Of a stretch of 43,401 nucleotides of DNA, positions 7,981 to 43,401 are shown piece by piece. The translations under genes and the position numbers were made by a program. The stretch is from Psammoneis japonica (lineage: Eukaryota). The notes beneath the pieces are model-generated. The model had not been told where the DNA came from, ran no database searches, and saw only the letters and a list, made by a program, of their open reading frames with translations. The stretch lies in NCBI GenBank assembly GCA_008632985.1, contig QPGO01000161.1, forward strand, positions 124,001-167,401. Direction: 5' to 3'. Numbering within the stretch: the stretch's first letter is position 1; the number at the start of each line of letters is the position of its first letter.

Positions 7981-7988
7981 TGTGTGTC

Positions 7989-15994: not shown

Positions 15995-16110
15995 CACAGC
16001 ACTTTCAATTGCAGTTGAGTGACACCCTGGTGCAACCTCGAGGATTCCCATGAAACATCTCTCGCTTCCAGAAATCAAGCAATGGGATCAAGGTGGTGGC
16101 AAGGCATGCA
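15995..16110 (+). repeat. Diverged copy of the FkbM gene 3' end and 3' flank (about 4400-4510, inverted)
   Basis: attgcagttgagtgacaccctggtgcaacc versus attgccgtggagtaacaccctggtgcgacc; both encode ...SIAVE*, with the stop TAA in one copy and TGA in the other. Confidence 0.7.
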
Positions 16111-16359
16111 ACTTGCATGTCAGTGTCAGACATGCAACAGAATGCCCCGACTGATTGTGCATGTTGCCACCCACTCGGCCGTGCTTTCTGCCACTGTGGC
16201 CATGTGGCGCAGTCAATCAGACCTGTGTGTGTGTGACAGGTGATGTGGTTTTGGTCAAAGCAAGCAAACTGGTCAAAAAAGTGTCAATGGTCACCACTTG
16301 CCAGCATTGTGAGGGAAAGGACATTTTTGCACTGTTTCAGACACCACTGTCGTGGCGGT

Positions 16360-18900: not shown

Positions 18901-19195
18901 GCCCTGCTCAGGGGGATGCCACTTGCAGCCAGACAGAAATGTTTTTGCCCACTGTGGAAATTGGTCAAGACTGTCAAGTTGTTGTGCTTTGACAGTGTGT
19001 GTTGAACATGCAGGGATGTTGTTTCAAATGGAAATTTCAGGAAAAAGTGACAAATGACCCTTGATGGATTTTGTTTTGCCTGGAGGTGGAACCAGCTCTG
19101 CATGAGGTTGGGGTCAGAATTTTTGGCCTTTTTTGCAAAAGAATTTGGAGAAGGGAGTTTGGCACTTCAAACTCCTGTTGGTGTAAAAGAAAGGA

Positions 19196-20140
19196 GTGTG
19201 CACATCCCCATCACTTGCACAGTGCCATGGCAAACTTTCCCTCGTTGCACCCATCTCTGACAAGAAAGCAGTTGACAGGAAAATTGTCATTGCTGCTGCT
19301 TCTGATCTTCTTGTTGTCATCATCTTGATCATCCCCCTGTTGCAGATTCTGCAGACTGATGAAATCAGCACACATGATTCCTTTGCGGTGGCAACAGACA
19401 AACCCATGTCAACTGCTGATTGCTTGGATCTTTGTCTGGAGAATCAAGTGAATGGTTTGATTGCTCAAAACAATCAAGCATTTGTCACAATGCCAGCTAA
19501 AGCCACCAGTTCTTTCCTGAAATTGTTCACCAAGATTTGCACGAAACAAGAGCCTCTTGACAATTTTGTCAACTGCCATCAGCAGACAAAAGCATTCTTG
19601 ACTGATTCGTTGCACTTGCCACCAATGATTGCATTTCACACATCATTGGATCAACCGTTCATTGATCTGCAGAACACACCTCATCCAATGGTGCATTGAT
19701 CATCTGCATTCATTGACAAGAAACAGATTGACTGCTCTGTGGCATTCAAATGGTCTTGACCTTTCATGTTTGTCAGAGGCGTCATTTCAAGATTGGAAGT
19801 GCTGTCAGTCATTTCAACCTTGAAAAGAATGGGATGCATTGCATCATGGAGATGAGGGTCCAGCAATTGACATTGTCAAAAAGAGAACACAAGAGATTGG
19901 CTTTGGTTCATTCAATGTTTTAACATGCAAGTCCTGCAAAGCAATTGTGAACAATGAACCCAATCTGGTCTCTTTGTTGGCTGCAAGCAAGCAGATAAGA
20001 TCTAAAAACTGCTCTCAAAGAATCATTCTCCAGATGTGTTGGCAGGCCTCCCAGCAAAGACAAATGTCGAAGAGGAAAATTCAAGTGTTCCTGCATTTGA
20101 ACAATGAGAATCTCTTGTCGTGTCACTCAATGATTGGCTG
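19196..20140 (+). pseudogene. Degraded copy of a host-type membrane-anchored protein gene
   Basis: An N-terminal hydrophobic stretch is followed by TMPAKATSSFLKLFTKIC..DNFVN..FLTDSLHLPPMI. It has several frameshifts, no Tyr, and TpA is depleted. Confidence 0.45.
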
Positions 20141-20469
20141 AAGGCAAAAAGAGAAATGCTCTTGAGTGGGCTCTGAAATTGAAATCAAATGTAACATGTC
20201 AAGCCACTGCCAAGCACATGGAGAAAGAACTGTTTTCATGTCCCCATCATGAAGCAATGAGGTGTCATTGTCCAGTGTCAAGTGATGGCAGGCATCAAGA
20301 GTTTTGCAAGCACAAGAAAGTTTGCTGAAACAAATGAGGATCCATTCAGACAAGCCAAATCAATTGGGCTAAATCCAGGTGATGGTCGAAACAGATGCCA
20401 ACGGATGCCAGGAAGTATGACAAACGATGATGACTCAGGAATTCATTGGCAACCCCGTCATTTACACCA

Positions 20470-24269: not shown

Positions 24270-27200
24270 ACGGCTTTGGAAAGCAGAACAAAGCTGGAGC
24301 ACCCAGGTTCTAGTCTCCAATTTCGAGACATTTTCAGGCTATGCTGTCGCACAGCAAACAACGGGAATTTCACACGGAATGCATTTGCGAACACAGCACA
24401 TGCAACCAACCATGATTGGACGACTTTTCTGCACGCAACATTGTGGATTGCGAAGATTGCGGATTTTCACTGCACGGCTTGTCAATTGATTTTCAACCAC
24501 TCACAAATGACAAGAGCCATGCATCCTTGTCAGCTCATTTTTGTTTCGTTTTCATGTTGCAGCCCTCGACCAGCAGAGAGTCAGTGGAGGAGCAGCCAGT
24601 GTGAGAATTTTTCACTGCTGCCGCGGCACCCTCTCTCCAAGTCTCTTCTAAATCTGCCCAGCAATCTCTTTTCTTCAACCCCATCCCACAGTGACCAACA
24701 AGCCCCTGCTGCTGGAGTTGTGGAAGACAAAGCTGCTCCTGCATGAAAAAGAGGCCACCCCACAAAAAGCTTTTTGTGCACGCACACAGAGCAGCTCAGC
24801 AAAGGCATGAAGAACCTCTCCCCTGTGTCTGCCAGCATGAACATTTTGTTGCTGTCACAGCATTGTTGTCATCATCTGACTGCTGAATGTGCCCTTTTTG
24901 GTTCTTGTCTAAATCAAGCTGAACTGTCACTCTTGCTCTGCAAAAACCCAGGAGACCCAACGTGGTCAGATTGTTCAAGTCATTTGGCCTCTTCTTGTTT
25001 GAGTTTTCATTGGTGGCTTGCTCCAACTTTGCCAACTTTTTTTGTGGCCTGCAGCAGATTGTTGCTCTTTGGCAGCTTCCGCCACTTTTTTGCTGCACTT
25101 TGAGGTTACCAGACAGGCACTTTGGGGCTGGTGCCCACCCCATGACAGACCACAAAACTTTGAGCCATTTCTCCACCTCTAAATCCAAAACATGCAGGAT
25201 GGTTGTTTGCAGTTTGATGTGCCTGCTGGAAGTTTTTCTTGGGAGGCACAATGAATGACATGCTTGGCCCTCAACATTTCATTTGTGGCCAGCGTGATGG
25301 GCGAGAGGGACAGGCTTCTTTTTTTCTTGTTGGGGGGCAGCAGGGTTCTTGACCATTGCATTTGCTCAGTGTGTGAGTGGAGGGTTGCAAGCTTGTCTCC
25401 AGCTCTGAAAAGGTGGAGTCAACGGCAAATGAGTTTGTGCTCCATTTGGCCAACTGTCTTGCTGCAGTCTTTGTGCTGGTTCACTCACATGCTCTGCTGC
25501 TTCATGTGCTGCTGTCTAACATGTGCTGCACCGAAGGTGCTGCATGGAAGGAGAGGTTGTGTGTGACATGGCAAAACATGGCCCAGCACCCAGCACTTTC
25601 CTTCAAGCCCCTGCTTGCCACAGTGTCTTTGCTGTGAGATCTTGCTGAGATGGGCATGATGATGGATTTTGGCAGCTCTGTGAAGAGCTCTAAGATTTTC
25701 ACTCTGGCTGCCCCAGCTGAGTTTGGGGTGCATTGCTTTTTTGTTTGGCTGGCTTTGCAGCCACTTTTTGTTTGAAAGCCAGCTCAGCCCAGCATGATTG
25801 GCAGCTCCAGAGCTGCTCAAATGGGGAGAGGTGCACACACGTGTGTTCATTCCTTGTTTTGGTGCTGCAAAAAGCAGCAATCTGATGCACATGGGTGCCC
25901 CTTGTTGGCTCACACTGGGTTGGGTTTTTGAGCAACTTGGAGAGAGCTTTCTTTCTCAAGGCTTGCAAAGGTGCCAAAGAATTTTTCTTCACACTTCTTC
26001 AAGCTTGGACCAAAGTTGCCCAAAGCCACAGATTCTCTTTTCCTTGCTCAGGCTTGGGCTCAGGAGGTGCTGGCCCGCTCCTCCAAAAATGGAGCTGATG
26101 TGCTCTCTCTCTTTGTCAGCCCCACCTCACATTGTGCCCAACTTGGAACCCAAGCTGCAGCTCAGATTCCACCAGAAATCATGCACTGTGACACAAAAGG
26201 TTTGTTTCATCACCTCAGCTGTTGCTTTCAGCAGCTTGGAGCTGCCACAAGGAAGGCGCTGCACAATGAACATGGTGCTCTCATCACCAGAGGCATTGTG
26301 ATGTAAAAAAAATGAAATCTGTTTCACCGCGCCTCACCACCACCCACACCAACACCGACCACAGCAGACCCATGTTCCCCAGCACCCACAAAGGGCGGCA
26401 GGGACAATTTGAACACTGTTGAACGTTGTCAGAAAGCAATGCCATCAACATTGTCCAAAGGCAATGCCGTCAATGCATCATCAGAAAGAGGCTGTTTGTT
26501 TTAAGTCAGAATGGCACCGACCGGATGCTTGTTGCACCACTTGGGAGACACCAAAGTGAACACTGCAGAAAACTAAAACTCGTGTCTGTCTCCAAAGACA
26601 ATTTGTTTGAAGAGAATGTGAGCGAAATTCCTGGCATGAAACCATCCAGGAAGTCCTCCAACACGGACCCCAACGATGAAAGGAAATGATGATCGTGGAA
26701 ACTTGCCATCATGTGCAGAATTGTGCAGGAATTGTGTGCTGAAGCTGCAGCATCGAAGTGCAAAAAGAGCAAACACTCGGACCTGGAAATGCTGGCCACT
26801 TGAAAGACTTGTGAAGACCCACTTTGAAGCGCTGTGAAGTGTTGATCATGACATTGAACTGCACTGCAAAGAAAACTTGGAGGAAGAATATTGGCAAGAA
26901 AAACAAAGGATGAAACTTGAAATGGTCTCGACTCAAAATTCTGGCCAAATGCACAGAATTGTGCATGGAATTTGCACTGAAATGACTGACTTGGAAATTG
27001 CTGAATCATGCAGAGGTTGATGCAGAAAACACACTGACACATGGAAAGAAAATGCAAAGAGCTGCAACACCATGGCGGTGCCGCTCCCCTGAACGCAGAC
27101 ACAACAGAGCATCCCCTCCAACACCTTTTGGTTTCTCTGTCATTGACGCAACTGCCTGACGTCCCAAAGTGCCTGAAGAGTTTGGCATGCCACCACACTC

Positions 27201-27700
27201 TCACACGGGACAATCCTGCGGGCGCTTGTGCAGAATTGCGAGGCATTGTGATGCAGATTTCACCACTCACAATTTGATCACAAGAGGTTTGATTCTTTTG
27301 CACTCTGTGCTTTTTTCTTCTCAGATTTTGGCTCTTCTTCACCCGCACGTCTTCTGCCCACTTGTTTGTGACAGCGCCCCCTCTGCTCCATTGTGATGTG
27401 GATTTCACCACTCACAATTTGATCACAAGAGGTTTGATTCTTTTGCACTCCTGCCATTCTTCTCTGGCACGTCTTCTTCCCACTTGTTTGTGTCCGGGGC
27501 GAGGTTCTTCTGATGAGGTCTCTTTTGCTTGCTGGCGTGTGTCTTTTTCTGAGATGGTTCCTTCATCAGGAGTTGCAGATTTGGCTTCACCTTGCTCTCT
27601 CTCTCTTCTTTTGTCCCATTCCACGGTTTCCTCTTCCCTTTTTCTTGTTTGTTTTGTTCCTTCTTTAGTGCGTTTGCGGCCGACCATGGTGCGAAAATTT
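24270..27700. other. TpA-depleted tract of degraded, unassigned (probably repeat-derived) sequence
   Basis: Only about 14 TA dinucleotides by hand count in 3.4 kb. Many short Cys/His-rich ORFs and no recognisable domain. Confidence 0.6.
27245..27492 (+). repeat. Two-copy tandem duplication, period about 144 bp
   Basis: attgtgatg(ca/tg)gatttcaccactcacaatttgatcacaagaggtttgattcttttgcactc occurs twice, followed by cacgtcttct..cccacttgtttgtg. Confidence 0.85.
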
Positions 27701-27775
27701 TAGCTTGCTGTCTGTGCGACGTTCGTCATTTCGCCTTGATGCTCGGTCGTCGATCGTGCATGACATTTTTTCAAG

Positions 27776-28622
27776 ATGACAATGTTGAAACACCGCCTCT
27801 TTGCATCCCTCTTTTTCTCATTTCTTGCCTCACCGGCTGCTGCCAATCCATTATTGTTTTCCTCCAATGTCATTCAACTAACCGCGAAAAACTGGCAAGC
27901 ACAAGTCGAAGAGTCCGAGCACGCGGTATTTGTCATCATATGTCGTTCCGGATGAGGGTACTGCCAGCTGCTTGCTCCCGAATGGGAAAAGTTAGCTGGC
28001 GCTGTCAAGGGAACTGTCAAAATTGCACACTGGGACACTGAACAAAACACTAGACGACCGTCGTTGTTGGGTGAAATCAAGGGAACACCAACAATTCGTC
28101 TCTATGTTCCGAAACGGAAACAAGCCAACGGTAGCTCAACGAAAAAGTTAGTGTTGGATTATCCGTACGAACGAAAAGCTGTCGATATGAAGCGATGGGT
28201 GGATGAACACATGCCTAACTTTGTCGAGCCAATCCGTGATGGTTTGGCGGTCTGGAAAATTTCAAAACAAGGCCAACAAATACGGGCTGCCACAAGTTTT
28301 ACTCTTTGCGTCCAAACCCAACAAAACGCAGCCATTGACCAAGTATCTATCGACCGAATTTCGACGACGTTTGTTACTGGGACAAGTGGATCCAACCAAA
28401 CCCAACAAGGAACTTATGGACAAGTATGGAATTGTTCAATTGCCAGCCTTGCTTGTCATTCCGCCTAATGATTCTCAAGAGACTACTATCATTCGATACG
28501 AGGGCGATGGATTTACAAGAAACAAGTTACAGTCGTTCTTGTCGAAACATGCGCTCAAAGAAAAGGTATTGCCGAAAAAGAAAGAAGAAAAGAAAAAGGT
28601 TGGGGCAGACGGAGAGCTATAA
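27776..28622 (+). CDS. Secreted/ER PDI- or thioredoxin-like selenoprotein (UGYC active site)
   Basis: Signal peptide, then VIQLTAKNWQAQV...ICRSG[TGA 27953-27955]GYCQLLAPEWEKLA, continuing in frame to IKGTPTIRLY. A small indel near 28250 leads into a second Trx-like domain ending ...ADGEL*. Confidence 0.85.
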
Positions 28623-29895: not shown

Positions 29896-30495
29896 GGTTT
29901 CTTCGTTTTGAGTTTTGAGAACTCGACCATCAACCAACCTGATTTTTTGAAGATGCGCTGCAGCTGGGTATGTGTATTGCCTGATCGCGGATCACGATCA
30001 AACATTTATTCTCGACTCGTGATTCGGGCGTTTGAAATTCGATCAGTCGTGATAATCTTACAGTATATCGTGTAATCCGCCACCCGAACGTCTGTTGTTT
30101 TATATTCTTTCATGTCCAACACCTAAGTAAATGTAACATTTATGTGTCACAGGGCAATATAACAATAAAGAATCACTTGACAAAAGACATCCGAAGAATT
30201 TTGATTTCGCAGAGCGACAACCGCAAACAAGAATCGCAAGAACAGAGTTGCACAAGCCCTCTCTACTTCTACTTCTACTCTGGAGAGCTGGGAGGAGAGA
30301 CCAAGAGCAACCACCAACGCCTGCGTCATTTGTGCTCCTGAACCACACGGTGAGCAGAAAAGGGTCATTGTTTGCGTGTTGCAACATCACAATCGTTTGT
30401 CGATTCTGCACTCACTCTTTGTTTTCTCGTCAAATTTCAAATTCCGTCTTGCAAGGGGAGCTTTTTCCAGAAGAAAGAAGAGAAAGTGTCGAGTC

Positions 30496-32170
30496 ATGAA
30501 GCGAAACATTTCATCGACCCTGGTCATCGTTGGTGCCATCATGTCAATTGTTGAAACCGCAGCTCACATGGCTCCGGTGGGGTGCTCCAGAACAACAAGA
30601 ATCGCTCTGCACCCAATCACCATCCATGCGCCGACAACCACACGCACAGTCTTGTTTGTGCGTGACGCACACTGGTGGACATTGGCGGCGAGTGGAAACA
30701 GATGGGAAGTGACATTGCAGTTGGTGATGCTGGCGGCCCTGGAAATGTGGTCATTTCCAGTGACGGGAAGGTGGTGGCTGCCTCGCTCAGGAAACACATT
30801 GGCGTGCTGTTTGAGTCAGACAAAAAGAAATGGAAAGAAATGGGATCCAACCTTGAACTTAAACACAAACGCCTGAAAAATCCCAGACTTGCCATCTCCA
30901 AAAAAGGTGCTCACCTGGCCATGGCAAGTCACGTCGCGCAAGTCTTTAGGAGGGATGGGTCGGTTTGGACGCAAACGGGGCAAAACACAACCCACATTGA
31001 CCCTGTCAAAAGCCTGGGCCGACCTTTTGGCCTTGCAGCTACATCTGATGATGGGCACACTCTCGTCATTTCCTCGGAAGGCCAAGACATTTATGACGAT
31101 GATGAGTGTGGACCTTCAAGATGTTTCGTCGGCCATGAAGTCAGATTGTTCAAGTGGGGTGGGTCCAACTGGAAAGAAACTCACAGATTTGGTGAAAAAG
31201 GTTGTCCAGAGCAAAAATCCTTTGGCAGTTATGTGTCCATTTCAGGAGATGGAAAGCGTGTTGCGGTTTCATCGCGCTTGGGCCTGGAGGAACATGGACA
31301 TGGTGCCGTTCGCATTTGCGGGGATCTCGGAGGCACGTGGGACCGGCTGGGAAAGGATCTTTTCGACAAAAGAAGGATCACAGACTCCAGCTTTGGGCAA
31401 AACACTGCTTTCTTGCGAGATGGAAACCGAGTCGTTGTTGGCGATGCTTTTGGTGAGGGGTGCACTCGCGTTTTGGAGTGGAGTGGGAAGGCATGGGTGC
31501 AGGTGGGAGAGGATGTCGCAGGATCCAAGGACGTGGTTCGTGGTCCACTGTTTGGGTGGCTGTGTCTAGCGACGGGAATTGCATTGCCGTTGGTTTCTCC
31601 AAATTCTTCCGGAGCGATCAACCGACTTGGTCTGTGTCTTTGAACATGTGTGAATGGGATGGAATGGTGTGGAAGCAGAGAGGCAGTGCGACAGCGGCGA
31701 GCGATGGGGATGAGATCATCTTCGACTTTCTGTGTCTAACGATGGAGATCGTGTTGCTGTTGTGCGAAACTCAACCCAACTTGGGGTTTGTGAATTCGCC
31801 AAAGAAAACCCACCAACCAAAGCCGCTCGGAAAGTGAAAATTGACGTGAAACCCTGCAAGATGAGAAAGAAAATTAAATGGCGTGAAGGTGACATTGACG
31901 CCATTGTGCAAGTGGGAACAGTGGGCGCAAAACATTTTGACGTGTCGAAAATGAAACAGAGCTAGCGTGAAGTTTGGCAACGCCAGTCCGGTGGGAGAGC
32001 GTGTCACAAACTTCAATTCAGATGAGTGCATGGATTTGGTTCTTAAGTTTCGGGTGCACGAAACCAATTTTCGTCCAGGTGCCAACGTGAAGGTTTGCCT
32101 TTTGGGAGAAACAACGAAAGCCAAGAAGTTCAAAGGGTGCCAAAGAGTGATTGTCAGGATTCGAAAATAG
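30496..32170 (+). pseudogene. Secreted beta-propeller (FG-GAP-like) repeat protein gene, frameshifted and TpA-depleted
   Basis: Repeats WKQMGSDI..VVISSDGKVVAA, SFGSYVSISGDGKRVAVS and WVQVGEDV. Positions expected to be Tyr read Cys (VRIC, GCTRV). Confidence 0.7.
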
Positions 32171-32324
32171 AAACAGCTGGCTTAAAAAAAAAGACCCAGC
32201 ATGGGTTCATCCTAAACTTTGTCTCTGCTGCTGCTCTCTGGCAGAGTGGAATTGATCTCTAGAGTGTGTGATGGTGTCTGGCACTTCTCACCATGATGTG
32301 CGTGTTGCATTTCCACAGCAGCGA

Positions 32325-35300
32325 CACTCTCCATCGTGAGTCGATGCGTCGACCGTTCTTCGCTCACGCGCTCGCACGCACCCGAAGGTCAGACTCTCGC
32401 GGAAGTGAGATGGACGATGCACCAGGGTCGCATGTGGGCGGATTGTTGCAGTGCCATTTTTTCGCTCACACCGAACGCATGGGAATTTGGAATCTAAAAG
32501 GTGAACATTGTCTCGCTCAGTCATGATTCCCTCCCGCCGGAACACACTTTCCCTCCCGATGTCAGACAGAAGCAACTCGGCGCTTCGACCAATGCGCTGC
32601 GTGTTGCAGCAGTGTGGGTTAATCCTTTCATTTTAACCTTGCCACAAGACCCCACGTGTGTCATGTCTGCACGATGAATGGTGTCTGGATTGACAAAACC
32701 AAACTCGACTTTCTCGATTTGCGAGCAAATCTCCCTCCGACGGACCCAAACTCTGATCCCGACGGATCGCTTTCGAGGAAGCTTGCTTTTTGTGTGAAAC
32801 ATTTGCCAAAGCTCATTTTCGCCCCAGCTCAATCAAGACCAAGCCAATTCAAATGCGAAGTCAAACAAACAATGACTCGTTGAGCACGAGAACTGATGGT
32901 GCCTCATTCCGAGTTTGAGACATGCTGCTCGATCCACAAGGGCATGGCGGTTCTGCCAAGGGGGCATCGATGGTCGAAGACTTGCTTCATGTCAAGCCAG
33001 GTGAGTTGATGCTGTTGTGCATTCTGCGCAACAAAGAAAACAAGAACATCCATGACTCGTGTCAAGAAATGTGCACCCAGAATGAGCACCTGTTTTCCAA
33101 CTTCACCATTTGCGGATTTCGCAGCAGTTGTGACAGACGGGTTCCAGTCCCAGGTGGGACTCCGTGTGACATTGGGCCCGTGGAATTCCACGTGCGAGCT
33201 CCACAGTGCAAGAATTTAATTGGTGGATGTGTTCATCTTCAACATCAAATGAACGGCCAAGTTTGTGGCACAATTGTGCGTCTTGCCACTTGACGTTTTT
33301 GCAAATGCGCCTGCCCTGTGTTGTTCTTAAGACATTGTAGAATCGCGCTGCAACAAAAAATGTCAAAAGTTGTTGGACGGATCGCTCAATGAGTGCACCG
33401 TAAAATGACACAAAATGTCAAAAAAATCACCTAGAAATCTACGTGCGCGACATGCAACGTGATTCAAAAAACTGTCGATGTCACAGTTCAGCAGTGCGAG
33501 GTCCCACCTGGACCTGGAACGCGTCGACAAAATGAAAGTGATGCCAACCACCTCCAGATTCCTGTTGAGGTTGTTTCCAATCTGGCAGAGAACACTGTCC
33601 CTCTTCCAGGAGCTGCCGGCAACCCGTCCATGCCAAACCTTGACACTGGCATCAAAGTGCAATTCTTCTTCTCAAACTGCAAGAAAGCTCCAAAGACCAA
33701 TGGTGGCGAGTCATTGATTTCTTCACGCATGCATTGCAACACCATTTTCAGCTGCGTCGCATCAACAAGAATGAATTGCAACCACTGCCAGACTTCCTCC
33801 CTCTCTTTGTTGGCTCCAGTGCCAAAGCTGTCATTCGCAACAACTGCGGGCTGCTGATGCAGTTGCTTTTGGAAGCTGGTCCCGACCCGCAACTGTTTCT
33901 TGCTGTTGTCAACAATTTTCAATGTGTGCTGGAATGAAGGGAAATGAAACAGTTGAGAAGGCAAGTTGCAGCACTGAAATCCAAGGAGGAGAAAAAGGCT
34001 GCTGCTTGCCCAGCACTCACTCCTGTGAATCCCAATGCACTGGCTTCTCGAGATGCAATGGCAACGAAAGCAACTCCTTCAATCTGAGGCGACACCGCAT
34101 CGGCACAAAAGGCAGATGCTTTCCCGACACCCACTCCTGTTGATGCCAATGCACCAGTCGCTCCGGAGGAGACAAGACAGCAAATGGCAAAAGGTTAAGA
34201 CATGGAGCTCTGCACTGGTGGGTCTGTTTCCAAATTGACACAGAACTTTGACAATGTGGCGCGAGACTTGCTGACTTCTCTGTGCAGCAAATGGATTTCC
34301 TTTCTGCTGATGGCACATTGGACATTGAGGGGCTGATCACTTCATTGAAAAAAGAAGGACCACACACATGGGCAGCGGTTTCTTCAGCAAGAGCACCAAG
34401 ATCATGCGTCGAAAACAAAGACAGGGTTGTGATGCTTCACATCTTCTCGCTTCTGCATGAGCGCAGTCAACGCTTCCTCAGGAATGTTGCACTCATCCTT
34501 GCATTTGCCGGCATGGCGTGTGGTGTTTCTTCCTCATCACAAGAGGTGATCAGCACACTGCGCCTTGTTGCCAATCGAAAATCTGCAATGACGTTCATGA
34601 AGGACAATGAAGATGCATGCCGTGAGAATGTGTCTGAGCTTTTTCGAAAGGAACCGGCTCTTTCTCTAGCCTGGGATAATTGCCAACGTGGACAGCAATT
34701 GTCTGAGCAACGCAACATGCAAAGCAACCAGTTTGCAATCGCAACGAATGGTGTTGCTGTCCGAGAATGCATTCAGATGTGGCCGAAAGGTGCTGTTCTG
34801 AAACACAAGGACGGAGCCGAGTTTAAAGTGTTAGAGCAGGTTGACAAGGATCCCTCTCAGCACTGGGCAAAATGTTGTGCACGCCAAATGGATTCTCAAG
34901 CAAGTGAGGTCTTGACAACCTTGCCAAGTTTTGAGTGCAAAGCAAGCAAGTGTCCTGAGCTGGCCGAAAGGCCGTCCATCACCCACCTGACACAAACGAT
35001 TCCGCCGCCTTTGGGATGTGCATGGACGGCATCTCAATGCAAGCGAATGATGGACATTGCTCATTTGATGCAAGTCCTTCACCAGTTTGGAACTCACAAT
35101 GTCCTTGGGGAGCATTCGCTGCAACAAACACTTGCCCCACTCTGCAGCGAGCTGTTCCAAATGAGGGAGAAGATCTACAAGGAAGGGCTCGCGTGGAAAG
35201 GTTCCATCAAGAATGATGTTTCGCAGTTTCAGTTCATGGAAATCATGCCCTGCAACAAACGATGGAGAGGGGCTCCAGCGATGTCATGTTTCGAGTGTTG

Positions 35301-38300
35301 AAGGCAGTTGGAAGTCTGGAAGCAGATTCACAAGGTGCAATTCACACTGCAGACAAGACGGCCAATTGAAGGCAGTTTGTGTGCGGTGATCAACTTGCCA
35401 TCAAGCATGTCCAGACCATGGTCAACAAGCTGATGAAACCAGCCATTGAAACCGATGACCCAGAGTCTGCTCAAGCTTTTCCAAAGGCCGTGGAATCTGT
35501 CCACCCACTCATTGGCGACCTCCACGTGAATGTTCATGTTGTCGCCGGCATTTATCTCCATTTCTGTGGTGGCATCTTCCAACCAATCCAGGCAGCGCTT
35601 GGGTGGACCCGCATCCAACGGAACACTGTTCCGAGACACAAGCTTTCAGCAAAAATGCTGGTGTTGATCCATGACCAACTGAGCCGTTTGCTCGTCCAGA
35701 AATGGACACTTGCATTGATGCCAGACAGCAGTGTGAGATTGGTGCAATGCTTGGAAGTTGAAGACATCAAAGAACTTGCTCAGCAACGGCAGCGACTCTA
35801 CATTGACTGCACCACACAAGGATCTGGCCAAGCAAAACTCACAGACCATTGTGATGACACTTGTTGCCAGCCTCGAATCATTCACAAAGCCAAAGGAACA
35901 GTCAAAGGATGCATGCGTTTGTGTTGCCATGCAGTTGTGTGAGGAAGGGAAAGTGCACAAAGAGCACAACCGGGCAACTCATCTCGGCAATCCCCACCTT
36001 TGCGAAATCCTCCGCAAGCAGCTGCTTGCATTCTTTGGAGGTCTCAAGAAACCAAGCTGTGTCGAGTTGTTTGCATCTGCCATGGAAGTCGCAACAGCGC
36101 TTCAAGAGCAATGCCTCAACAGCTTTGTCCGGATGACTGAGGACAAGGGATGCATGGCTTTTGACAACATGTGCGACTTCATCAATCTCTTGATGAAACA
36201 CATGACAAACATGAAAATGGATGTGCTCGTCCACAGCTCCCTGTGCCTTTCTTCAATGCAAGTGTGCCGCAAGTTGCAGAACAAAACAATCGGAGTCAGC
36301 AACGAAAAATTCGAAGACTCGGCCAAGATCAACACAAAATTGAATGGAGAAATTGTGTCACACCTTTTGGATGACTGTTGTCACATTCTCGATGAAAAGG
36401 GCCGCACTGAGCTTCAAGATGACTTTGTTTGGAAGCATGTCCCAGCAACCATCGCCAAGTTCATGCCAAAGGCTGCTGCAAGCAATCGCACTTCTTTGCC
36501 ACCAGAGTCCAAAGCCATCAGTTGCTTGTTCGGTGATCTTGCAAAGCAACAGCCAATCTCGCAAAAGCAAGTCGAGCAAGAGGAAAAAGATTGTGAGAAA
36601 GAGTCCGACGCTGACGATGACAACAAAGGCGGCACCGATGAAAACAACACCATTGAAAACGCCGACCCAAACAGCACATGCCAACGAATCGCAAAAATGG
36701 CCAAGTGCCCTCTTCATCAGGCCGTTCGAGGTGGAAAGGACATCCGTGAGATGGGAGCCAAGAAGCCAAAGAATTTGAAAGAGAACAGAAGTGAGAAAAT
36801 GCAAAAGCAGCAATGCCTTCTTAGACGGCTGGGGGAAGCGACAGAATGGAACAAAAAGAACATGCGATCAGCGGTTCAACTGCAAGACAACACATCTCCT
36901 TTGGTTTTGAAGCTGCTTGGGGATTGCACTGGTGACGAAGAGAGAGAGAAGCACTCATCGCGGCAACGCTGCAGTCGTTGCTTCCGGAAGGGTAAATGCC
37001 GTGACCATTTCAAGTGGAAGGAGTCATGCATTTGGCAAGCAGTGGTGGGCCATTTCTCATGGCGGTCAAAACCGGACAGGGCAAATCTCTTCTAGCTCCA
37101 GCTGCCTCCCTTCCAATGGGAGGCATGACCATTGTGTTTGAGCCTTTGTTCTCTGTTGGCGGAGATCAGACATCGTCAACACAGTTGCCCCCCCCAATCC
37201 TCGTGTTCGCTGTTGTCACCTTGACAGTCTGCCAAAGGCAACGGTTGAAGAACTGTCAGCCAACGCGATGGAGTCCAAATCACACATGCATCACCTGAAT
37301 CATTCGACAAGCATGACAAATGGAGTGATTTGATCACTTGCGTGATTGAGGACCGCTTGTTGAGCGCTGCTGTGGTGCTTGACAAAGCACACAAATTTGC
37401 TCTTGACCAACATTGCCACCCCATGCTTGCATTGATGGAATTCAAGAAGGTCATCTGAGGTCCCATGGATTGCCGCATCAACCTGTCATTGGAAGTGAAA
37501 CCTGACATGTCCGAGTGCACGAAAGCAGTGAAGAAGCACACAAAAAGTCAGTTGTCAGCACCAAAGTGAAAGGTGATTACACACAAGCACTCAGCTTCAA
37601 AAGCAGAAGCACTTGTTGATCATCTGCATGACATCTGCACTGAGACAAGTGATGAGGCTGTGTGCCTTGCCAGCAACGAGGGTCGAGTGTGCAAAGGACA
37701 TGTCACCCACGTGTTCTGTTTGGATGGCACGAAGACTCGGGTGTTGGTGAGCACTGCAGCAGGGGATTGCAGCCTCAATTGCAAGCAGTGTGGAGCGGTG
37801 GGCATGATGGGTTTCCCGTTGAGCATCAGCGACAAGGCTCAACAAGAAGGACATGCCAACAGTTGCGGCGTTGATGCAGAAGTGCTGCACGAAGCTTGGC
37901 ACTTCATTTGCATCCCTTCCTTTTAACTGTCTTTTCCCACAGATTGCAGAGACAAAAGTTGAGGAAAAGGCAAATGGTCAGAGGAAAGTGAGCATTGACG
38001 AAATCAGGAAGGAAAAGCACGTCAATTTCATGGAAGCATTGAAGCTCATGATGATCCCAGAAGGCTGCATTCACTGTGCTTGCAAGCAACAACTTGAGGC
38101 CAGTCTCATCAGAACAAATCGTGACTCACCCAAGCGCCAGAACAGGGAATTGCTTCCGCCACCTAGACCAAAGCCGTGCGAAGACTGTTGTTGGCATTGC
38201 CACCAAGAGGACATGCTTCTGGTGTCATCGCGGGCAGCCTTGAAGGCCAAGCTGCAGGTGCGGATGAATGTGGATGGACCCATTGCTTTCAAAGAGCTCC

Positions 38301-40039
38301 CCCAATTCTTTTTTGAGCACCGCAAGCAGCTGTGGCCTTTAAAATGCACGAAAAACGATGAGCCAGAGGCAAGAGAATCTTCCATGCGATTGACGTTGAA
38401 GTTGATTGTGGCGGAGGTTCTGCAGCCCTTCGTCAAGGACACCGCAAAGGGTCATGTTGCACTTCGATGGGCAACTGTTTTGAATGAAGCTGGGCAATCT
38501 ATTTTTGCCTGTGACAAAGATGCATTGTGGGAAGCTGTCCCCCAACAACAGACGCACAACTGATGGCTCCTCATGCCACTGCATCTTTCCAATGAATCGG
38601 ACGTGTTCATCACATTCTCTTGGCTTGATCGCACTAGCCACACATCAAACCATGACCTGTGAACTGTCACGCCAGGTCATTGAGCTGGCAGTCATCCACC
38701 AGCAGTTGCCGTAGAGGCCAAAAAGAGAAGGGAGGACACAAGAAGTGAGAACATCCATGACACAGGATTCAAGAGAGGCAACAAAATTGGAGACATCAAT
38801 GCAAAAAACAGAAATGTTCTCACTGGCAATTGACGCCAAGGAAGAGACACAACAGTGCCACTGAGCACTGAGAGGTGCGTCAAAGAATGCCACTGAATCC
38901 CCACCAAGCCCGCCAATCAGCCTGTGTTTTCGATCCACGCTGTGTCTTAAAGCAGGAGATCTTGCCAGAGGCGAAAACAAAAACTGCAATTGTTGAGTCA
39001 CAGAAGCAAATTATGAGCAAAATCACAACACCAACTTGCCAATTGACCTTTGCGCACATTCTTTTGTGTCTCCTGCATGCACGTGCTTGTCACTGTGATG
39101 GCATTTGTCTCATGCCATTGCTGGAGGCATTCACACTGTCATGAACTGATGAACTCCTGCACGAGGCACAAGCCCCATTGAGTGAGTTTGAATGCCAATG
39201 GTTGACAATGTCATCACATGAGCTTGCCTCCTTGACTCAGTGTCGCCAAATGAGTGTGACCAATGCACTCAAATCTGCCCAAGCGGTGAGAAATCAATGA
39301 AACCGTCCAAAAATCTCCAAAAATGTCACAAAACAGTGACGCCCAACCAAAAATGAGACCCCAGACTGTCTTTGCCTTGAATCGGAGAGCTGTGGACAAA
39401 CCATGCCTCATGCAGACACCAACAAACAACGCCAAGGCATTGCATGGACTGAGAGCCTGCGTGACAACGAGGAAGAGCCCAACCCGTGAGTGAGCACATT
39501 TCTGGCAAAAAATGCAAAGCCATTTGTTACGAACAACAGAAACAATGGTTGTGCCACAAGAAAGACAATGCCGTTGCAAGGCAACAACAAAAATGTGCGC
39601 AAGTTTCCATGTCATGACTCACAGGGCGCAACGGAGCTGAACATGCAACGACAATCAACGACACACATCAGCACCTGCCGAAAAAGTGACGATTTTGCAC
39701 TTGGTCAGTCTCGGGGATAAATCAATGAAATGTTTGCCAATTTTCTCCGTTCCAACACCATGGTGCGCTTCAACAGCGAGCATCTGAACAACCACTGAAC
39801 GGTGCAAGGCATGGCGGTTGATGCGCCGATGAAATCGATCATCATCAGAACGGCCATTTTCTGGTGTGTTTTGTGCAGAAAGCTCTGTAGAGCATTTCGC
39901 CAAATCCAGGGAGGCATGGCAACAAATTGTGAGCCACCATCCATCTTGCTTCCGCGAGAGTCTATGAGGACACCTTTGGGTGTGTGCGAGCCACGCGCGA
40001 AGAACGGTCGACGCACAGACTCACGATGGAGAGTGCATG
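32325..40039 (+). mobile_element. AcademH-like DNA transposon (putative transposase plus RecQ-like SF2 helicase) with terminal inverted repeats, degraded
   Basis: Inverted repeats at about 32325-32460 and 39915-40039. Transposase-like motifs SLAWDN, GDQL, IGDLH and LGWTRI. Helicase motifs VKTGQGKSL, TIVFEPL..VGGDQ, VLDKAH, VLVSTAAG and GFPLSISDKAQQEGHA. Confidence 0.65.
37020..38563 (+). pseudogene. RecQ-like helicase, fragmented
   Basis: Degenerate motifs I, Ia, II (DEAH>DKAH), V and VI appear in order across frames, followed by a Cys-rich region (CIHC..CEDCCWHC) like the RecQ Zn-binding domain. Confidence 0.7.
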
Positions 40040-40124
40040 CGCAGCAGTGATGATGGCTCGACGAGCGACTTGTGATTTGATTTGGATGTTTGAACAATTC
40101 AAAGCAAAACCTTTCATCGACCCT

Positions 40125-40215
40125 TGTGGATGATGGGTGCAGACCTTCAAGACATTTTGTGGGACATGAAGTCAGATTGTTCAAGTGGGCTGAGTCCAAA
40201 TGGAAAGAAACTTGT
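40125..40215 (+). repeat. Fragment copy of the beta-propeller gene (31098-31192)
   Basis: gaccttcaaga...catgaagtcagattgttcaagtggg...tccaa.tggaaagaaact is shared. Confidence 0.8.
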
Positions 40216-40587
40216 GAAGGGGTTGTGGCTGTTGCTGAAGGGTGAAGGGTCGTGGCCGTTTTGTCTTGGGTTGTGCCCAAAGTGCAAATTGAAAAGAAGG
40301 TTGAGGATGGACTGTCATTTGGTGGTTTTTTTTTTTGCAGCTTGTGATTTAAAAATTTTGTCGTGCTTTGCCCGCATCATTTCACGACACCTCTGAGCAC
40401 CCCCAAACACTCATGAGTGTTCTCAACCCCCATCAGGGCTGTTGGGCCCATGCATGAACTGCATTTTTCAACCTTCAAATGCCAGTCATCACATCATTTG
40501 GCATGGTTGTTGTGTTCAACTGGCCACTGGGGCTGGAGCCCATCAACACAAAATTCCGCCAAAGTCGTGCAGAAATGTGTGTGAACA

Positions 40588-40675
40588 ACATGCGGCACAA
40601 TCCAAAAAACTGTTGTCACAGAAGCTTTGCAGTGCGAGATCCCACCTGGAGCTGGAGCACATCCACCAAACAATG
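40588..40675 (+). repeat. Diverged direct copy of 33451-33535
   Basis: IQKTVVTEALQCEIPPGAG versus IQKTVDVTVQQCEVPPGPG. Confidence 0.7.
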
Positions 40676-41111
40676 ATCCATCCTTGCATGTGCAGAAGTC
40701 ATGCACAGCAGCACAATGTTAGACAGATGACAGCCATGCAGCAGCTGACTGTGATTTGCAAGACAAATTGCCATTCAACGCCAACGGCAATCATGGCATT
40801 TTTCAGATGCTGTCAGAAGATGACTTTGCAGCAGACACTCCACTCATCAATCAACTGTGCTGTGTTGAACATGGACTCATGCAAAAAAAGTTCCCAGGAT
40901 GAACTCCCAGTCATCTGACAACCAAGTGCATCAAACAATGGCAAAAAAACTGAGCTTGTTGCCGGCATGACATTTTGCTGTCGAACGGAGGTTGCTTGCT
41001 CAGATGGTGCACACATGCCCCTTTTTGCTCAAATGCCAAATGTTTTGTGCTTTGTCCAACATTGGTTGCATTTTTTTATGATGAGATCAGCGGCTGTCAA
41101 TTGAAACAAAC

Positions 41112-41387
41112 TGACAGGATTTGAACAGGATTTGGATGCACGCGAAGTGTCGCGCGCTGTTTAGTTTACCGCGCACAGTTTTGTGTGCTTTAGTTCCGCG
41201 CATTCACGCGCGATGTAGTTTGCTTTCGAGCCACAAGGCTCACAAGAATAATGACAGTAGCCCGATTGTACCGACTTGCACGTCTTTCGGCTCCTGCAAC
41301 GGTCTCTGAGCGGAGACTCATCTGCTGTTTAGACAGCAGCAAGGAGTTGTTGTTTGAATTCTTGCCATTTGCCTTCATTTTCTGTCA
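41112..41387 (+). repeat. 5' LTR of a CoDi-like Copia element
   Basis: TGACAG...CTGTCA terminal inverted repeat. It is homologous to the sequence following the PPT in the elements at 7.5-8.3 kb and lies upstream of gag. Confidence 0.75.
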
Positions 41388-43401
41388 GATTAACAGTCTT
41401 GCTCATTGTCAACCCATTGAGCAACCGCCATTGTCGTCGTTGATTTACCAACGATGCTGTTTCAATTCTGCGTGGACCTCCGTGTGTGTTCTACATACAT
41501 CGGCAAGTCTACGCGCATTCAATGCCAGGGCATCGGCAGGAAGTTAACGTCACCGTCAAGTCTCCTTGCCGCTGGACATCTGGATTGATCATGCTGCCTT
41601 TGATCGCTGAAGACTTGTGTTCAACGGTCACATCCAAGTCTGTCCTTGATCAACATCCCTTGATGTGCCTGTTCCTCGGTTAACGGTCAAGAACCCTGCA
41701 CATTCAAGGATCTTAGTCGCTGAAGACATGCACATGTATGTGCATGTCTTCACGGCCAAGAACCTTTATCCACTCTTCGGACTGCGGTTTTGCTGCCACT
41801 CTACAAGCACACCGAGTCCATTGCACCTGATCTGCCCCGGACCACTGGTGCTCTGCAGTTCTGCCAGGTCCACGAGGACGACTGTGAGAGCAAGCAGCCG
41901 TGATTACAGCCTACGTTGGGGCGAGGGTGCTTTCCCGCGTTTGTTCGTTCGTCCACAGCGCCCAATGCCTACGTCAACTGGCCAGCCTGATCGGGAAATC
42001 CAACCGACATAAAATGAGAACAGTTCGGGGGTCTTGTCCACCTCCAGTCAGCTTACCTGCAGGGGTTTGCAACCCGCTGCTCCGCTCGTAAGCAACCCAA
42101 AGCACCGCTGGCTGTGGGTTCGGACGTGCCGGCACAACTCTACGGACCGGATGGGAAGTTTAGCACTTGACAACGAACGGGATGACAAAGCCCGGCGACT
42201 TCTGATTTTAAGATAGTTCAAGATTTCAAGTCAAGTCCATTTCAAGTCAAGTCTGTTCTCACCCAAGTTTCGAGTCTACCTTCGCTTCCCAACCAGAATT
42301 GATTGTCCTGACACCACTTTTGTCTGCCATGGTTCTCACTCGTCAGCAACAAACCGATGGTTTCGAGCACGTTGTTGGAACCGTGCTTGCCCAAGGTGCT
42401 GGGAGTCCTCTTCGTTTGGCTTTGGCCCAAGATGGCACGGACTCGCATCAGGAACCATTCACGTTCATGCCGTCCCAAATCGACTCGCTTGAGTGCGACA
42501 ACGGCACTGATGTGATCCCTTTGCCCCGTGGTTGTGAGAACATGTTAGCAGCACTGGTCAGTCTGTACATTGTCAAAGCACACAAAGGTCTTGACGTTGC
42601 CAACGACTCCTCTTTGTTCGCGCATGACGAGTTCCTTGCCCACCGCCTCAGCCCCGACTGCATGTCTTCTGTGTCCATCGGCAGCTCACCCCTTGCACCT
42701 CCACATGTCACCAATCCGACCAAGGCACGCGACCCGGTGCGGGACTTCAAGCAAGGCATCAAGCGTGATCCCACCGCTTTCACAGCTCTCAAATCCGACA
42801 AGCAGTGGCACACTTGGCACACCTCACTTGTGGCACAAGCCCGCGCCCAAGACGTCGAGTGCATTCTAGACTCGTCGTACAAACCGACCAGCCCCGAAGA
42901 CAAACTGCTCTTTGCTGAACAGCAAAAGTGCATGTTCGCCGTCTTTGAACGCATCCTTCTCACCGACAAGGGCAAGGCTCTCATTCGCGAAAATGTGGGG
43001 TCTTCTGACGCACAGACCGTCTGCCGCTCCTTGTCTGAGCACGCGCTTGCCTCCACCCGCGCATCCATCGAGTCCTCCACCCTGCTCACGCACCTCACCA
43101 CCGCACGTCTTGGTGATGGCACTTGGAAAGGTCCGACCCACGGGTTCATCCTTCATTGGCAAGATCAGCTGCGCAAGTGCGAGGCACTCATCCCGGCCAG
43201 TGACCACTTCTCTGAAGGACAGAAGCGCGTCATGCTCGAGAATGCCGTGCTGTCAAGAACCAAGCTGATCAGCATCGTACGCAGAGTGGCAAGAGCCTCA
43301 CATGTGATCAACACTGTGGCTTGCTCCTCTCCGCGGCAGCTCAGTGCGACAGCACGTTTCAACCCAAGACGACACCTTGAGCTCCCCGACGCGCCACACA
43401 C
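41112..43401 (+). mobile_element. CoDi-like Ty1/Copia retrotransposon, 5' part (LTR, leader, gag)
   Basis: Gag peptide at about 42740-43250: DFKQGIKRDPTAF..AQARAQDV..LLTDKGKALIRE..TARLGDGTWKG..FILHWQDQLR..HFSEGQKRVMLENAV. Confidence 0.9.

What the first reader, a model, noticed from the sequence alone, without database searches (positions are those of the whole stretch)
30300..32500. TpA loss is uncoupled from CpG loss
In this tract, and in gag at 42500-43300, CG stays abundant (e.g. atcgcgcttg, actcgcg, gcgtcgaccg) while TA is nearly absent (about 2 in 31200-31620). In 6000-9400 and 17000-20300 both are lost. Inference: A>G at TpA is a distinct and faster process than methyl-CpG decay, and the two together give a two-stage clock for tract age.
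Basis: partly seen in the sequence, partly recalled or inferred. Interest (0 to 1): 0.7.

Follow-up and report, generated by a model that had tools for sequence, protein, structure and literature searches.

The report
TpA erasure runs ahead of CpG decay
In silent and transposon-derived DNA of this diatom-like alga almost every TA has been rewritten to TG or CA, while CG loss is a separate change seen only inside those TA-stripped blocks and to very different degrees, so two mutation processes act on the same DNA at different speeds.

Summary
At 30300-32500, TA is 15 (o/e 0.11) and CG 113 (0.82). At 42500-43300 the values are 5 (0.13) and 54 (0.86). At 6000-9400 and 17000-20300 both are lost.

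- **Distinct processes: strongly supported.** In the copia gag relic (42329-43267), 1 of 10 conserved Tyr codons survives but 9 of 14 Arg codons do. In an older copia relic (7831-9329) the figures are 0 of 14 and 2 of 16. Sixty-five related copia loci from metagenomes show the reverse: CG o/e 0.02-1.18, with TA never below 0.44.
- **TpA loss faster or earlier: supported indirectly.** None of 41 TA-normal 500-nt windows is CG-poor; 12 of 45 TA-poor windows keep CG.
- **"Two-stage clock": unproven.** ORF intactness tracks CG (n=6). A copy-number proxy does not (p 0.16). One relic gene shows unequal CpG decay along its length (p 0.012). Methylation could not be tested.

The flagged tract holds an FG-GAP-like gene relic, not a recognisable transposon. 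The scan has already noted this hypermutation, and the uncoupling, on other pieces of this genome. The only published parallel I found is a 2026 preprint on Bigelowiella natans.

The parts
30276..33440 (.). TpA-depleted, CpG-retaining tract (class A), which contains the flagged region. It has a sharp left edge: 20 TA in 29969-30276, then 1 TA in the next 584 nt.
   Evidence: TA 23 (o/e 0.12), CG 160 (0.82); TA positions; CA+TG o/e 1.31-1.68
30666..31640 (+). 325-codon ORF resembling FG-GAP_2 beta-propeller proteins. It is a gene or gene relic, not a recognisable transposon. Only 2 Tyr remain, and about 2 copies at >=80% identity are present in the source reads.
   Evidence: 12 homologues, best E 9e-20, 28% identity; alignment keeps 23 invariant W/G/S columns; PF14312 in homologues; no Pfam hit of its own; depth 121-143 against about 56 for single copy; ORF length P 0.01 against Markov-1 simulations
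32805..38163 (+). Colinear, frame-shifted relic of a 1677-aa DUF6589 + DEAD/Helicase_C protein. All Tyr are lost; Arg is partly lost.
   Evidence: P0076 E 5e-97; Pfam; 8 tblastn pieces covering aa 4-1675; Tyr 0/49 kept (15 His, 12 Cys), Arg 34/91 kept (31 to Gln/Cys/His/stop)
33441..41077 (.). TpA-depleted tract with intermediate, patchy CpG loss (sub-blocks at o/e 0.40-0.76)
   Evidence: sub-blocks; pooled CG o/e 0.54; dispersion over the whole of 30276-41077 chi2 50.5, df 35, p 0.044
41078..42276 (.). High-copy segment directly upstream of the copia gag that keeps near-normal TA (29 TA, o/e 0.41; CG 0.91). It is probably the LTR/leader of the same element, which would put the hypermutation edge at 42277 inside the element.
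   Evidence: summed contig depth 78,000-193,000 against about 56 for single copy; the LTR/leader assignment is inference
42277..43401 (.). TpA-depleted, CpG-retaining tract (class A) running to the window end
   Evidence: TA 6 (0.11), CG 76 (0.87)
42329..43267 (+). N-terminal (gag) part of a Ty1/copia polyprotein from a very high-copy family, with one frame change near 43240-43267
   Evidence: conserved Tyr 1/10 kept (6 Cys, 2 His), conserved Arg 9/14 kept (all CGY); depth 72,000-99,000
5788..9428 (.). Tract with both TpA and CpG lost (class B)
   Evidence: TA 7 (0.03), CG 56 (0.26)
7831..9329 (-). Truncated C-terminal (RNase H end) relic of a copia polyprotein, with at least 3 frame changes and an inserted copy of a host fragment
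   Evidence: tblastn; conserved Tyr 0/14 kept (8 Cys, 4 His); conserved Arg 2/16 kept (6 His, 3 Gln, 2 Cys)
15777..20370 (.). Tract with both TpA and CpG lost (class B); no protein domain found
   Evidence: TA 16 (0.05), CG 57 (0.23); Pfam negative; longest ORF not above chance (P 0.66)
24340..27852 (.). Tract with both lost (class B). The left part is single-copy at >=80% identity; 26070-27403 is present at about 20-30 copies.
   Evidence: TA 13 (0.06), CG 71 (0.35); depth
7988..8167 (+). Mutated copy of the host fragment 4279-4465 (a before/after pair)
   Evidence: 82.9% identity; TA 12 of 13 converted to TG/CA, CG 5 of 6 changed, other sites 8 of 142 changed
16373..17059 (+). Mutated copies of the host segments 20479-20951 and 21108-21428 (before/after pairs)

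Best explanation
Two separate mutational processes act on the same silenced DNA (transposon relics and dead gene copies). The first is a TpA-specific A:T>G:C mutator of the kind measured in Bigelowiella natans. It is probably adenine deamination on DNA. It converts nearly every TA to TG or CA on either strand, soon after a stretch becomes a target. The second is ordinary C>T decay at CpG, most likely through 5-methylcytosine, because diatom repeats are CpG-methylated. CpG decay is slower or starts later, so a stretch passes from normal, to TA-lost/CG-kept, to both-lost. The flagged tract and the copia gag at the window end are in the middle state. Shown here: the direction and dinucleotide specificity of both changes, their separability in both directions, and the nesting. 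Inferred: the enzymes, the methylation, and that time rather than methylation level sets how much CG is left.
For: Direction and specificity: in four normal-to-mutated paralogue pairs, 35 of 43 TA sites became TG (20) or CA (15) and 1 was kept. 23 of 46 CG sites became TG (14) or CA (9) and 11 were kept. 133 of 881 other sites differ (two short overlaps are counted twice). Mass balance: YpR steps are constant at 23.0-25.4 per 100 nt in all segments, and CA+TG = 117.9 - 1.06 TA - 0.91 CG per 500 nt, R2 0.84. Separability one way: in the copia gag, Tyr 1/10 kept against Arg 9/14 kept (Fisher p 0.013). Arg kept 9/14 in gag against 2/16 in the old copia relic (p 0.007), with similar control-residue retention (69/108 and 91/125). 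Separability the other way: 65 related copia loci have TA o/e 0.44-0.88 (none below 0.4) with CG o/e 0.02-1.18 and no correlation (rho 0.15, p 0.24). In the 26 loci whose coding segments have CG o/e <0.2, Tyr kept is 270/358 and Arg kept 272/497. Nesting: 0 of 41 TA-normal windows have CG o/e <0.6; of 45 TA-poor windows, 33 do and 12 do not. One of those 12, at 12001-12500, is a GC-rich gene without CA/TG excess. Both strands: Tyr>Cys 26 against Tyr>His 21 (p 0.56), with no runs (14 runs against 14.3 expected). Literature: in B. natans mutation-accumulation lines, 230 of 231 mutations in two viral inserts were A>G/T>C, all at TpA, at about 6e-7 per site per generation, and CpG is not mentioned (Results and Discussion read). 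Methylation in diatoms is mainly at CpG and on repeats (passages of PMC5124317 and PMC9998398). The nearest named relatives of the host gene at 2-1813 are diatoms (Odontella aurita 51%, Pseudo-nitzschia australis 45%).
Against: No methylation data could be obtained: only 3 runs of one sample hold the DNA, and none is bisulfite or RNA. The CG-rich tracts may therefore simply be unmethylated. Residual TA and CG co-vary among TA-poor windows (rho 0.45-0.64), which a single shared process would also give. CG loss is seen only inside TA-lost tracts, with edges that coincide to within about 250 nt. The log-loss ratio TA:CG is 11 in CG-rich tracts but 2 in CG-poor ones, so constant first-order rates do not fit without a slow TA class or a burst. 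The copy-number proxy for youth does not predict CG o/e (rho 0.30, p 0.16). Arg retention differs within one relic gene (24/47 against 5/26, p 0.012, blocks chosen after seeing the data). No deaminase or methyltransferase candidate was examined.
Confidence: 0.6

Rival explanations
1. The two processes are distinct, but how much CG a TA-stripped tract keeps is set by whether and how heavily it is CpG-methylated (targeting or chromatin state), not by elapsed time. The dinucleotide pair then gives no age clock.
For: CG density is patchy inside tracts while background is Poisson-like (T2 p 4e-7, T3 p 4e-4, T4 p 0.044; backgrounds p 0.6-0.8). Arg retention is unequal along one colinear relic gene (24/47 against 5/26, p 0.012). 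The copy-number proxy is not correlated with CG o/e (p 0.16). In Cyclotella cryptica some repeats are hypomethylated (passage of PMC5124317).
Against: CG o/e ranks with ORF intactness over six tracts (rho -0.90, p 0.015, n=6). The CG-poor copia relic is truncated with at least 3 frame changes, while the CG-rich gag has one. Residual TA is also lower in CG-poor tracts (0.045 against 0.115, p 4e-4), as expected if those tracts have simply been exposed longer.
Confidence: 0.25
2. One machine does both: a deaminase with dual A and C activity attacks TpA efficiently and CpG weakly, so CG loss is a slow by-product of the TpA hypermutation. The preprint cites ADAT2-type enzymes of amphioxus and trypanosomes as having such dual activity.
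For: CG loss occurs only inside TA-lost tracts and shares their edges. Residual TA and CG correlate. Dual-activity ADAT2 enzymes are discussed in the preprint.
Against: Relatives elsewhere lose CpG completely with TA untouched (for example L055 positions 500-2000: CG o/e 0-0.07, TA 0.65-1.13), so CpG decay needs no TpA machine. In B. natans 230 of 231 hypermutations were at TpA. The gag relic has lost 9 of 10 conserved Tyr but kept 9 of 14 Arg.
Confidence: 0.08
3. No mutation process is involved in the flagged tract: the low TA there is native composition or selection (GC-rich coding sequence), as at 12001-13000.
For: The host gene at 12001-12500 has TA o/e 0.17 with normal CG and no CA/TG excess, so TA-poor coding DNA does exist in this window.
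Against: CA+TG o/e is 1.31-1.68 in the flagged tract against 1.13 in that gene. Conserved Tyr became Cys/His in gag (8 of 10) and in the DUF6589 relic (27 of 49, none kept). The same copia lineage elsewhere has TA o/e 0.44-0.88. The tract edge at 30276 is abrupt.
Confidence: 0.03

Closest known systems
TpA-restricted hypermutation of integrated giant-virus and virophage DNA in Bigelowiella natans (Mettrop et al., bioRxiv 10.64898/2026.01.13.699255; Results and Discussion read)
   Same: A:T>G:C changes confined to TpA, giving TpG or CpA on either strand. They are limited to sharply bounded regions of foreign or silent DNA. The long-term footprint is TpA depletion with CpA+TpG gain, and TpA-poor coding sequences are enriched in reverse-transcriptase and DDE domains.
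   Different: That work measured new mutations in a chlorarachniophyte and does not mention CpG (0 occurrences). Its regions are still only about half depleted (Rho 0.45). Here the host is diatom-like and only the footprint is seen. Depletion is near complete (o/e 0.03-0.12). Targets include retrotransposon relics, a helicase-gene relic and dead copies of host genes. A second CpG-decay layer is superimposed to varying degree.
CpG decay of methylated repeats; CpG methylation of diatom transposons (PMC5124317 Cyclotella cryptica, PMC9998398 Phaeodactylum DNMT5a; passages only)
   Same: CG>TG/CA transitions restricted to repeat or silent blocks tens of kb long next to unmethylated gene islands. 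Arg CGN codons become His/Gln/Cys.
   Different: Methylation of these particular tracts was not measured. Neither paper's passages mention TpA loss.
Repeat-induced point mutation (RIP) of Neurospora and other ascomycetes (recalled; no paper read for it here)
   Same: Dense, dinucleotide-specific transitions that wreck repeated and duplicated DNA in sharply bounded tracts, hitting gene duplicates as well as transposons.
   Different: RIP is C>T at CpA and creates TpA. Here TpA is destroyed and CpA/TpG are created, the opposite direction. Tracts that are single-copy at >=80% identity are also mutated (24069-26069).
ADAR- or APOBEC-type editing of retroelement nucleic acids (as discussed in the preprint)
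   Same: Deaminase-style hypermutation of mobile elements. ADAR favours a 5' U before the edited A.
   Different: Editing of an RNA or a single-stranded replication intermediate marks one strand. Here Tyr>Cys and Tyr>His are 26:21 with no runs, and targets that are not retroelements are hit.

Membership tests
TpA-targeted A:T>G:C hypermutation (B. natans type) | Changes are A>G / T>C at TpA, giving TpG or CpA | tested here: met
   35 of 43 ancestral TA sites became TG (20) or CA (15) in paralogue pairs. Conserved Tyr: 12/14, 8/10 and 27/49 became Cys/His.
TpA-targeted A:T>G:C hypermutation (B. natans type) | No comparable excess of A:T>G:C away from TpA | tested here: inconclusive
   At 881 non-TA/non-CG sites of old pairs there are 68 transitions and 65 transversions, so no transition excess. 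A>G was not separated from the other transitions, and the pairs are old (up to 21% diverged).
TpA-targeted A:T>G:C hypermutation (B. natans type) | Confined to bounded regions of foreign or silent DNA while neighbouring genes are untouched | tested here: met
   Five tracts with TA-free gaps up to 1239 nt border genes with TA o/e 0.41-0.61. The tracts hold copia relics, a DUF6589-helicase relic and dead gene fragments.
TpA-targeted A:T>G:C hypermutation (B. natans type) | Locally raised per-generation mutation rate (about 1000-fold) seen as new mutations | not testable with these tools
   Only assembled contigs of one sample were available. In the single-copy part of 24340-26366, 3 of the 4 differences between contig and window lie at a TA or CG step. 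This is suggestive only.
5-methylcytosine-driven CpG decay of silenced repeats | CG>TG/CA transitions concentrated in repeat or silent DNA | tested here: met
   23 of 46 CG became TG/CA in pairs. Arg became His/Gln/Cys at 11 of 16 columns in the old copia relic. The CG coefficient in the mass balance is -0.91.
5-methylcytosine-driven CpG decay of silenced repeats | The decaying CpGs are methylated | not testable with these tools
   No bisulfite or raw long-read run holds this DNA. Methylation is inferred from diatom methylome papers.
Fungal RIP | C>T at CpA, raising TpA and lowering CpA/TpG | tested here: not met
   TpA o/e is 0.03-0.12 and CpA/TpG o/e 1.4-2.0 in tracts, the opposite direction.
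Fungal RIP | Triggered by sequence duplication | tested here: inconclusive
   Duplicated host fragments are mutated only in the tract copy. However, 24069-26069 is mutated although single-copy at >=80% identity today. Past copy number is unknown.
RNA-level A-to-I editing fixed by reverse transcription | A>G on the sense strand only, in retroelements only | tested here: not met
   Tyr>Cys 26 against Tyr>His 21 (p 0.56). Targets include a helicase-gene relic and host gene fragments.

The most novel reading that the evidence does not exclude
TpA editing is the first, fast layer of a two-layer genome defence shared by distant SAR algae (diatoms and chlorarachniophytes). Any newly silenced or duplicated DNA is stripped of TA within an evolutionary instant, independently of cytosine methylation. 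CpG decay follows slowly, so the TA/CG state of a tract really does order insertions in time. Slower conversion of TA in the YTAR context would be one reading of the biased residual TA; a simple TAY motif was tested and rejected.
Probability: 0.3. Interest if true: 0.8.

Novelty: new member of a known kind. Interest (0 to 1): 0.62.

Why it matters
If a diatom-like alga carries the same TpA-erasing mutator just reported in a chlorarachniophyte, the process is not a curiosity of one species. It would be a widespread, undescribed way of disabling invading and duplicated DNA, with chemistry opposite to fungal RIP.

Showing that it runs separately from, and ahead of, CpG decay matters in three ways:
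- It tells experimenters that knocking out DNA methyltransferases should not abolish it.
- It warns that CpG-based or GC-based dating and repeat annotation in such genomes are confounded: Tyr codons and TAA/TAG stops vanish, random ORFs become about 200 codons long, and Pfam fails on the relics.
- It offers a testable ordering of insertions once a methylome and a whole-genome per-copy analysis are available.

Tried and rejected

**Pfam on tract ORFs.** I listed 173 ORFs of at least 75 aa overlapping the tracts. All 173 were scanned (83, 90). Nothing reached a curated cut-off, and the copia and helicase relics were invisible to Pfam.

**Taxon.** The ESM Atlas was uninformative and cluster members carried no organism names. 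The taxon was settled only roughly.

**Sequencing runs.** Three runs of one sample were found, none RNA or bisulfite. No methylation or expression test was possible. Laying their contigs printed only 40 of 904 differing places, so the between-copy spectrum could not be compiled.

**Copy-number proxy against CG o/e.** Not significant (rho 0.30, p 0.16).

**Constant-rate two-exponential clock.** Rejected: the log-loss ratio is 11 against 2.

**Strand bias and processive runs.** None found (26:21; 14 runs against 14.3 expected).

**Strand-specific 5'-TAY-3' motif model for the biased residual TA.** Rejected. His outcomes are preceded by a pyrimidine in 8 of 21 cases (Fisher p 0.77), and YTAR sites are converted in 6 of 7 cases in old pairs.

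**Native-composition explanation.** Rejected for the relics.

**Literature searches for a diatom report.** 'diatom, TpA, transposable', 'diatom, hypermutation, retrotransposon' and 'TpA, A-to-G, hypermutation, transposable elements' gave only the B. natans preprint as relevant.

**Ascertainment caveat.** The metagenome scan used two peptide patterns. One contains Tyr/Phe and the other Arg, so it is biased against heavily TA- or CG-mutated copies. Its zero count of TA-poor loci is weaker evidence than it looks, although the Arg-containing pattern carries no TA requirement.

Full report
**What is in the window.** The window has GC 48%. It alternates between gene-bearing DNA and five tracts in which TA is almost absent.
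- Gene-bearing DNA has TA o/e 0.41-0.61 and CG o/e 0.91-1.0.
- The five tracts are 5788-9428, 15777-20370, 24340-27852, 30276-41077 and 42277-43401. TA o/e is 0.03-0.11, with TA-free gaps up to 1239 nt.
- The number of pyrimidine-purine steps is the same everywhere, 23.0-25.4 per 100 nt.
- Over 86 non-overlapping 500-nt windows, CA+TG = 117.9 - 1.06 TA - 0.91 CG (R2 0.84).
Lost TA and lost CG have therefore become CA or TG, one for one, by transitions.

| Region | TA (o/e) | CG (o/e) |
|---|---|---|
| 30300-32500 | 15 (0.11) | 113 (0.82) |
| 31200-31620 | 2 | 25 (0.88) |
| 42500-43300 | 5 (0.13) | 54 (0.86) |
| 6000-9400 | 7 (0.03) | 47 (0.23) |
| 17000-20300 | 9 (0.04) | 19 (0.11) |

Pooled values:
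- CG-rich TA-poor tracts: CG o/e 0.84, TA o/e 0.115.
- CG-poor tracts: CG o/e 0.27 (ratio 3.0 against the CG-rich tracts, p 2e-29), TA o/e 0.045.
- Background: CG o/e 0.96 (the CG-rich tracts against background: ratio 0.87, p 0.05), TA o/e 0.55.

**Direction of change.** Four stretches inside the CG-poor tracts are copies of normal host DNA elsewhere in the window. I took the normal copy as the earlier state (two short overlaps are counted twice):
- 35 of 43 TA became TG (20) or CA (15), and 1 was kept.
- 23 of 46 CG became TG (14) or CA (9), and 11 were kept.
- 133 of 881 other sites differ, with transitions and transversions about equal.
The youngest pair (7988-8167, 5.6% changed at other sites) has already lost 12 of 13 TA and 5 of 6 CG.

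**What the tracts are.** Pfam finds nothing in 173 tract ORFs. Homology searches do.
- **42212-43399** is the N-terminal (gag) part of a Ty1/copia polyprotein (E 2e-65; tblastn 42329-43267). It belongs to a family whose contigs pile up to 1300-3400 times single-copy depth in the source reads.
- **7831-9329 (minus strand)** is the truncated C-terminal end of another copia polyprotein, with at least three frame changes.
- **32805-38163** is a colinear, frame-shifted relic of a 1677-aa DUF6589 + DEAD/Helicase_C protein.
- **30666-31640**, the core of the flagged tract, is not a recognisable transposon. It is a 325-codon FG-GAP_2-like beta-propeller ORF, present about twice in the reads.
- The host gene at 2-1813 has diatoms as its nearest named relatives. 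This agrees with earlier notes of this scan that call the genome a diatom.

**Codon test of the uncoupling.** Homologues give the earlier state at conserved columns. Tyr must have been TAY. Arg is mostly CGN here.

| Relic | Tyr kept | Arg kept | Notes |
|---|---|---|---|
| Copia gag (CG o/e 0.87) | 1/10 | 9/14 | Tyr: 6 Cys, 2 His; kept Arg all CGY |
| Helicase relic, 33441-36200 | 0/23 | 24/47 | |
| Helicase relic, 36201-36830 | 0/5 | 4/13 | |
| Helicase relic, 36831-38163 | 0/14 | 5/26 | |
| Old copia relic (CG o/e 0.16) | 0/14 | 2/16 | Arg: 11 turned into His, Gln or Cys |

- Control residues are kept equally in the two copia relics (69/108 and 91/125).
- Tyr against Arg within gag: p 0.013.
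- Arg in gag against the old relic: p 0.007.
TA loss is therefore essentially complete wherever it occurs, while CG loss ranges from slight to severe.

**The reverse case in relatives.** A scan of metagenome contigs returned 65 loci encoding relatives of this gag.
- None is TA-poor: TA o/e is 0.44-0.88.
- CG o/e runs from 0.02 to 1.18, uncorrelated with TA (rho 0.15, p 0.24).
- At codon level, the 26 loci with coding CG o/e below 0.2 keep Tyr at 270/358 but Arg at only 272/497.
- The 19 loci with CG o/e of 0.6 or more keep Tyr at 395/481 and Arg at 542/653 (64 of the 65 loci had a usable match).
CpG decay therefore proceeds without TpA loss in other hosts, and TpA loss without CpG decay occurs here. 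This is the strongest evidence that the processes are distinct.

One caveat applies. One of the two search patterns required Tyr or Phe and the other Arg, so mutated copies were harder to find.

**Order and speed.**
- Of 41 TA-normal windows, none has CG o/e below 0.6.
- Of 45 TA-poor windows, 33 do and 12 do not.
- One of those 12 is a GC-rich host gene without CA/TG excess.
- CG o/e among TA-poor windows is continuous from 0.06 to 0.97.
CG loss is thus nested inside TA loss, which fits a TA process that is faster or starts earlier. In log units the CG-rich tracts have lost 1.56 of TA and 0.14 of CG. The CG-poor tracts have lost 2.50 and 1.25. A pair of constant first-order rates does not fit. 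TA loss behaves like a quick, nearly saturating first stage with a slow tail.

**Is it a clock?**

In favour:
- Longest-ORF significance ranks with CG o/e across the six tracts (rho -0.90, p 0.015, n=6).
- The old copia relic is more broken than the gag.
- Residual TA is lower where CG is lower.

Against:
- The copy-number proxy does not predict CG o/e (rho 0.30, p 0.16, 23 bins).
- CG is overdispersed within tracts.
- Arg retention differs along the single helicase relic (p 0.012, post hoc blocks).
- Whether the CG-rich tracts are methylated is unknown, because no suitable run exists.

I therefore rate the clock as plausible but unproven.

**Mechanism.**
- Tyr>Cys and Tyr>His are 26:21, with no runs. 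Both DNA strands are hit site by site, and targets include DNA that is not a retroelement. This argues against editing of sense RNA.
- The only description of such a process that I found is the B. natans preprint. There, 230 of 231 new mutations in two viral inserts were A>G/T>C at TpA. An ADAT2-like adenine deaminase is proposed, and CpG is not discussed.
- CpG methylation of diatom repeats is documented (passages) and suffices for the second layer.
- Three literature searches found no diatom report of TpA loss.

**Relation to earlier notes of this scan.** The TpA hypermutation has been noted on many other pieces of this genome. The uncoupling from CpG was also noted at least twice. Those notes gave me the preprint lead and the diatom label, and I checked both. 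The codon-anchored tests, the reverse case in relatives and the tests of the clock are new here.

Noticed in passing
all five TA-poor tracts of the window: The few surviving TA are strongly context-biased. YTAR accounts for 53 of 91 (58%) against 126 of 674 (19%) in background. RTAY accounts for 4 of 91 against 182 of 674. ATAC/GTAT accounts for 0 of 92 against 100 of 674. CA/TG sites that could regenerate TA are only 23% YTAR. A simple strand-specific TAY motif model failed, so the bias is unexplained.
   Followed up: partly
window 41078-42276: This segment is as highly repeated as the copia gag beside it (depth 78,000-193,000 against about 56 for single copy), yet it keeps near-normal TA (29 TA, o/e 0.41). 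The hypermutation edge at 42277 seems to lie inside one element rather than at its end.
   Followed up: partly
window 24340-26366: The same-locus contig of the source reads differs from the window at 4 places in this single-copy, TA- and CG-poor stretch. Three are at a remaining TA or CG step (25107 TA/CA, 26076 and 26257 CG/TG). This hints that both processes are still polymorphic or active.
   Followed up: partly
window 32740-34073: The 5' part of the DUF6589-helicase relic coincides with a repeat present at about 1000 times single-copy depth, with many contigs starting at 33136. The rest of the relic is at 1-3 copies. This pattern is expected if short non-autonomous derivatives of a large mobile element have multiplied.
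   Followed up: no
window 12001-13100: A GC-rich host ORF with 126-nt tandem repeats has TA o/e about 0.2 but normal CG and no CA/TG excess. It is a TA-poor stretch that is not hypermutated and would be a false positive for a TA-only screen.
   Followed up: partly
window-wide, TA-poor tracts: Because TAA and TAG are gone, random ORFs in the tracts are long. The mean longest ORF is about 195 aa in Markov-1 simulations of 3-5 kb. ORF length alone is therefore no sign of a gene there.
   Followed up: yes
L055 positions 500-2000; L056 1751-2371; L057 1501-2500: The metagenome copia relative L055 has lost all CpG (o/e 0-0.07) with TA at 0.65-1.13. The related contigs L056 and L057 share a patch of about 750-1000 nt with TA o/e 0.14-0.20 and CA+TG 1.6. 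This may be a TpA-hypermutated patch in another organism.
   Followed up: no
window 31000-32000 and 17750-18750: There is a strong local excess of TG over CA (50-57 against 25-33, and 67-76 against 41-48 per 500 nt), with G>C and T>A skews. The skews are too large to come from TA conversion alone. Codon-anchored outcomes show no overall strand bias.
   Followed up: partly
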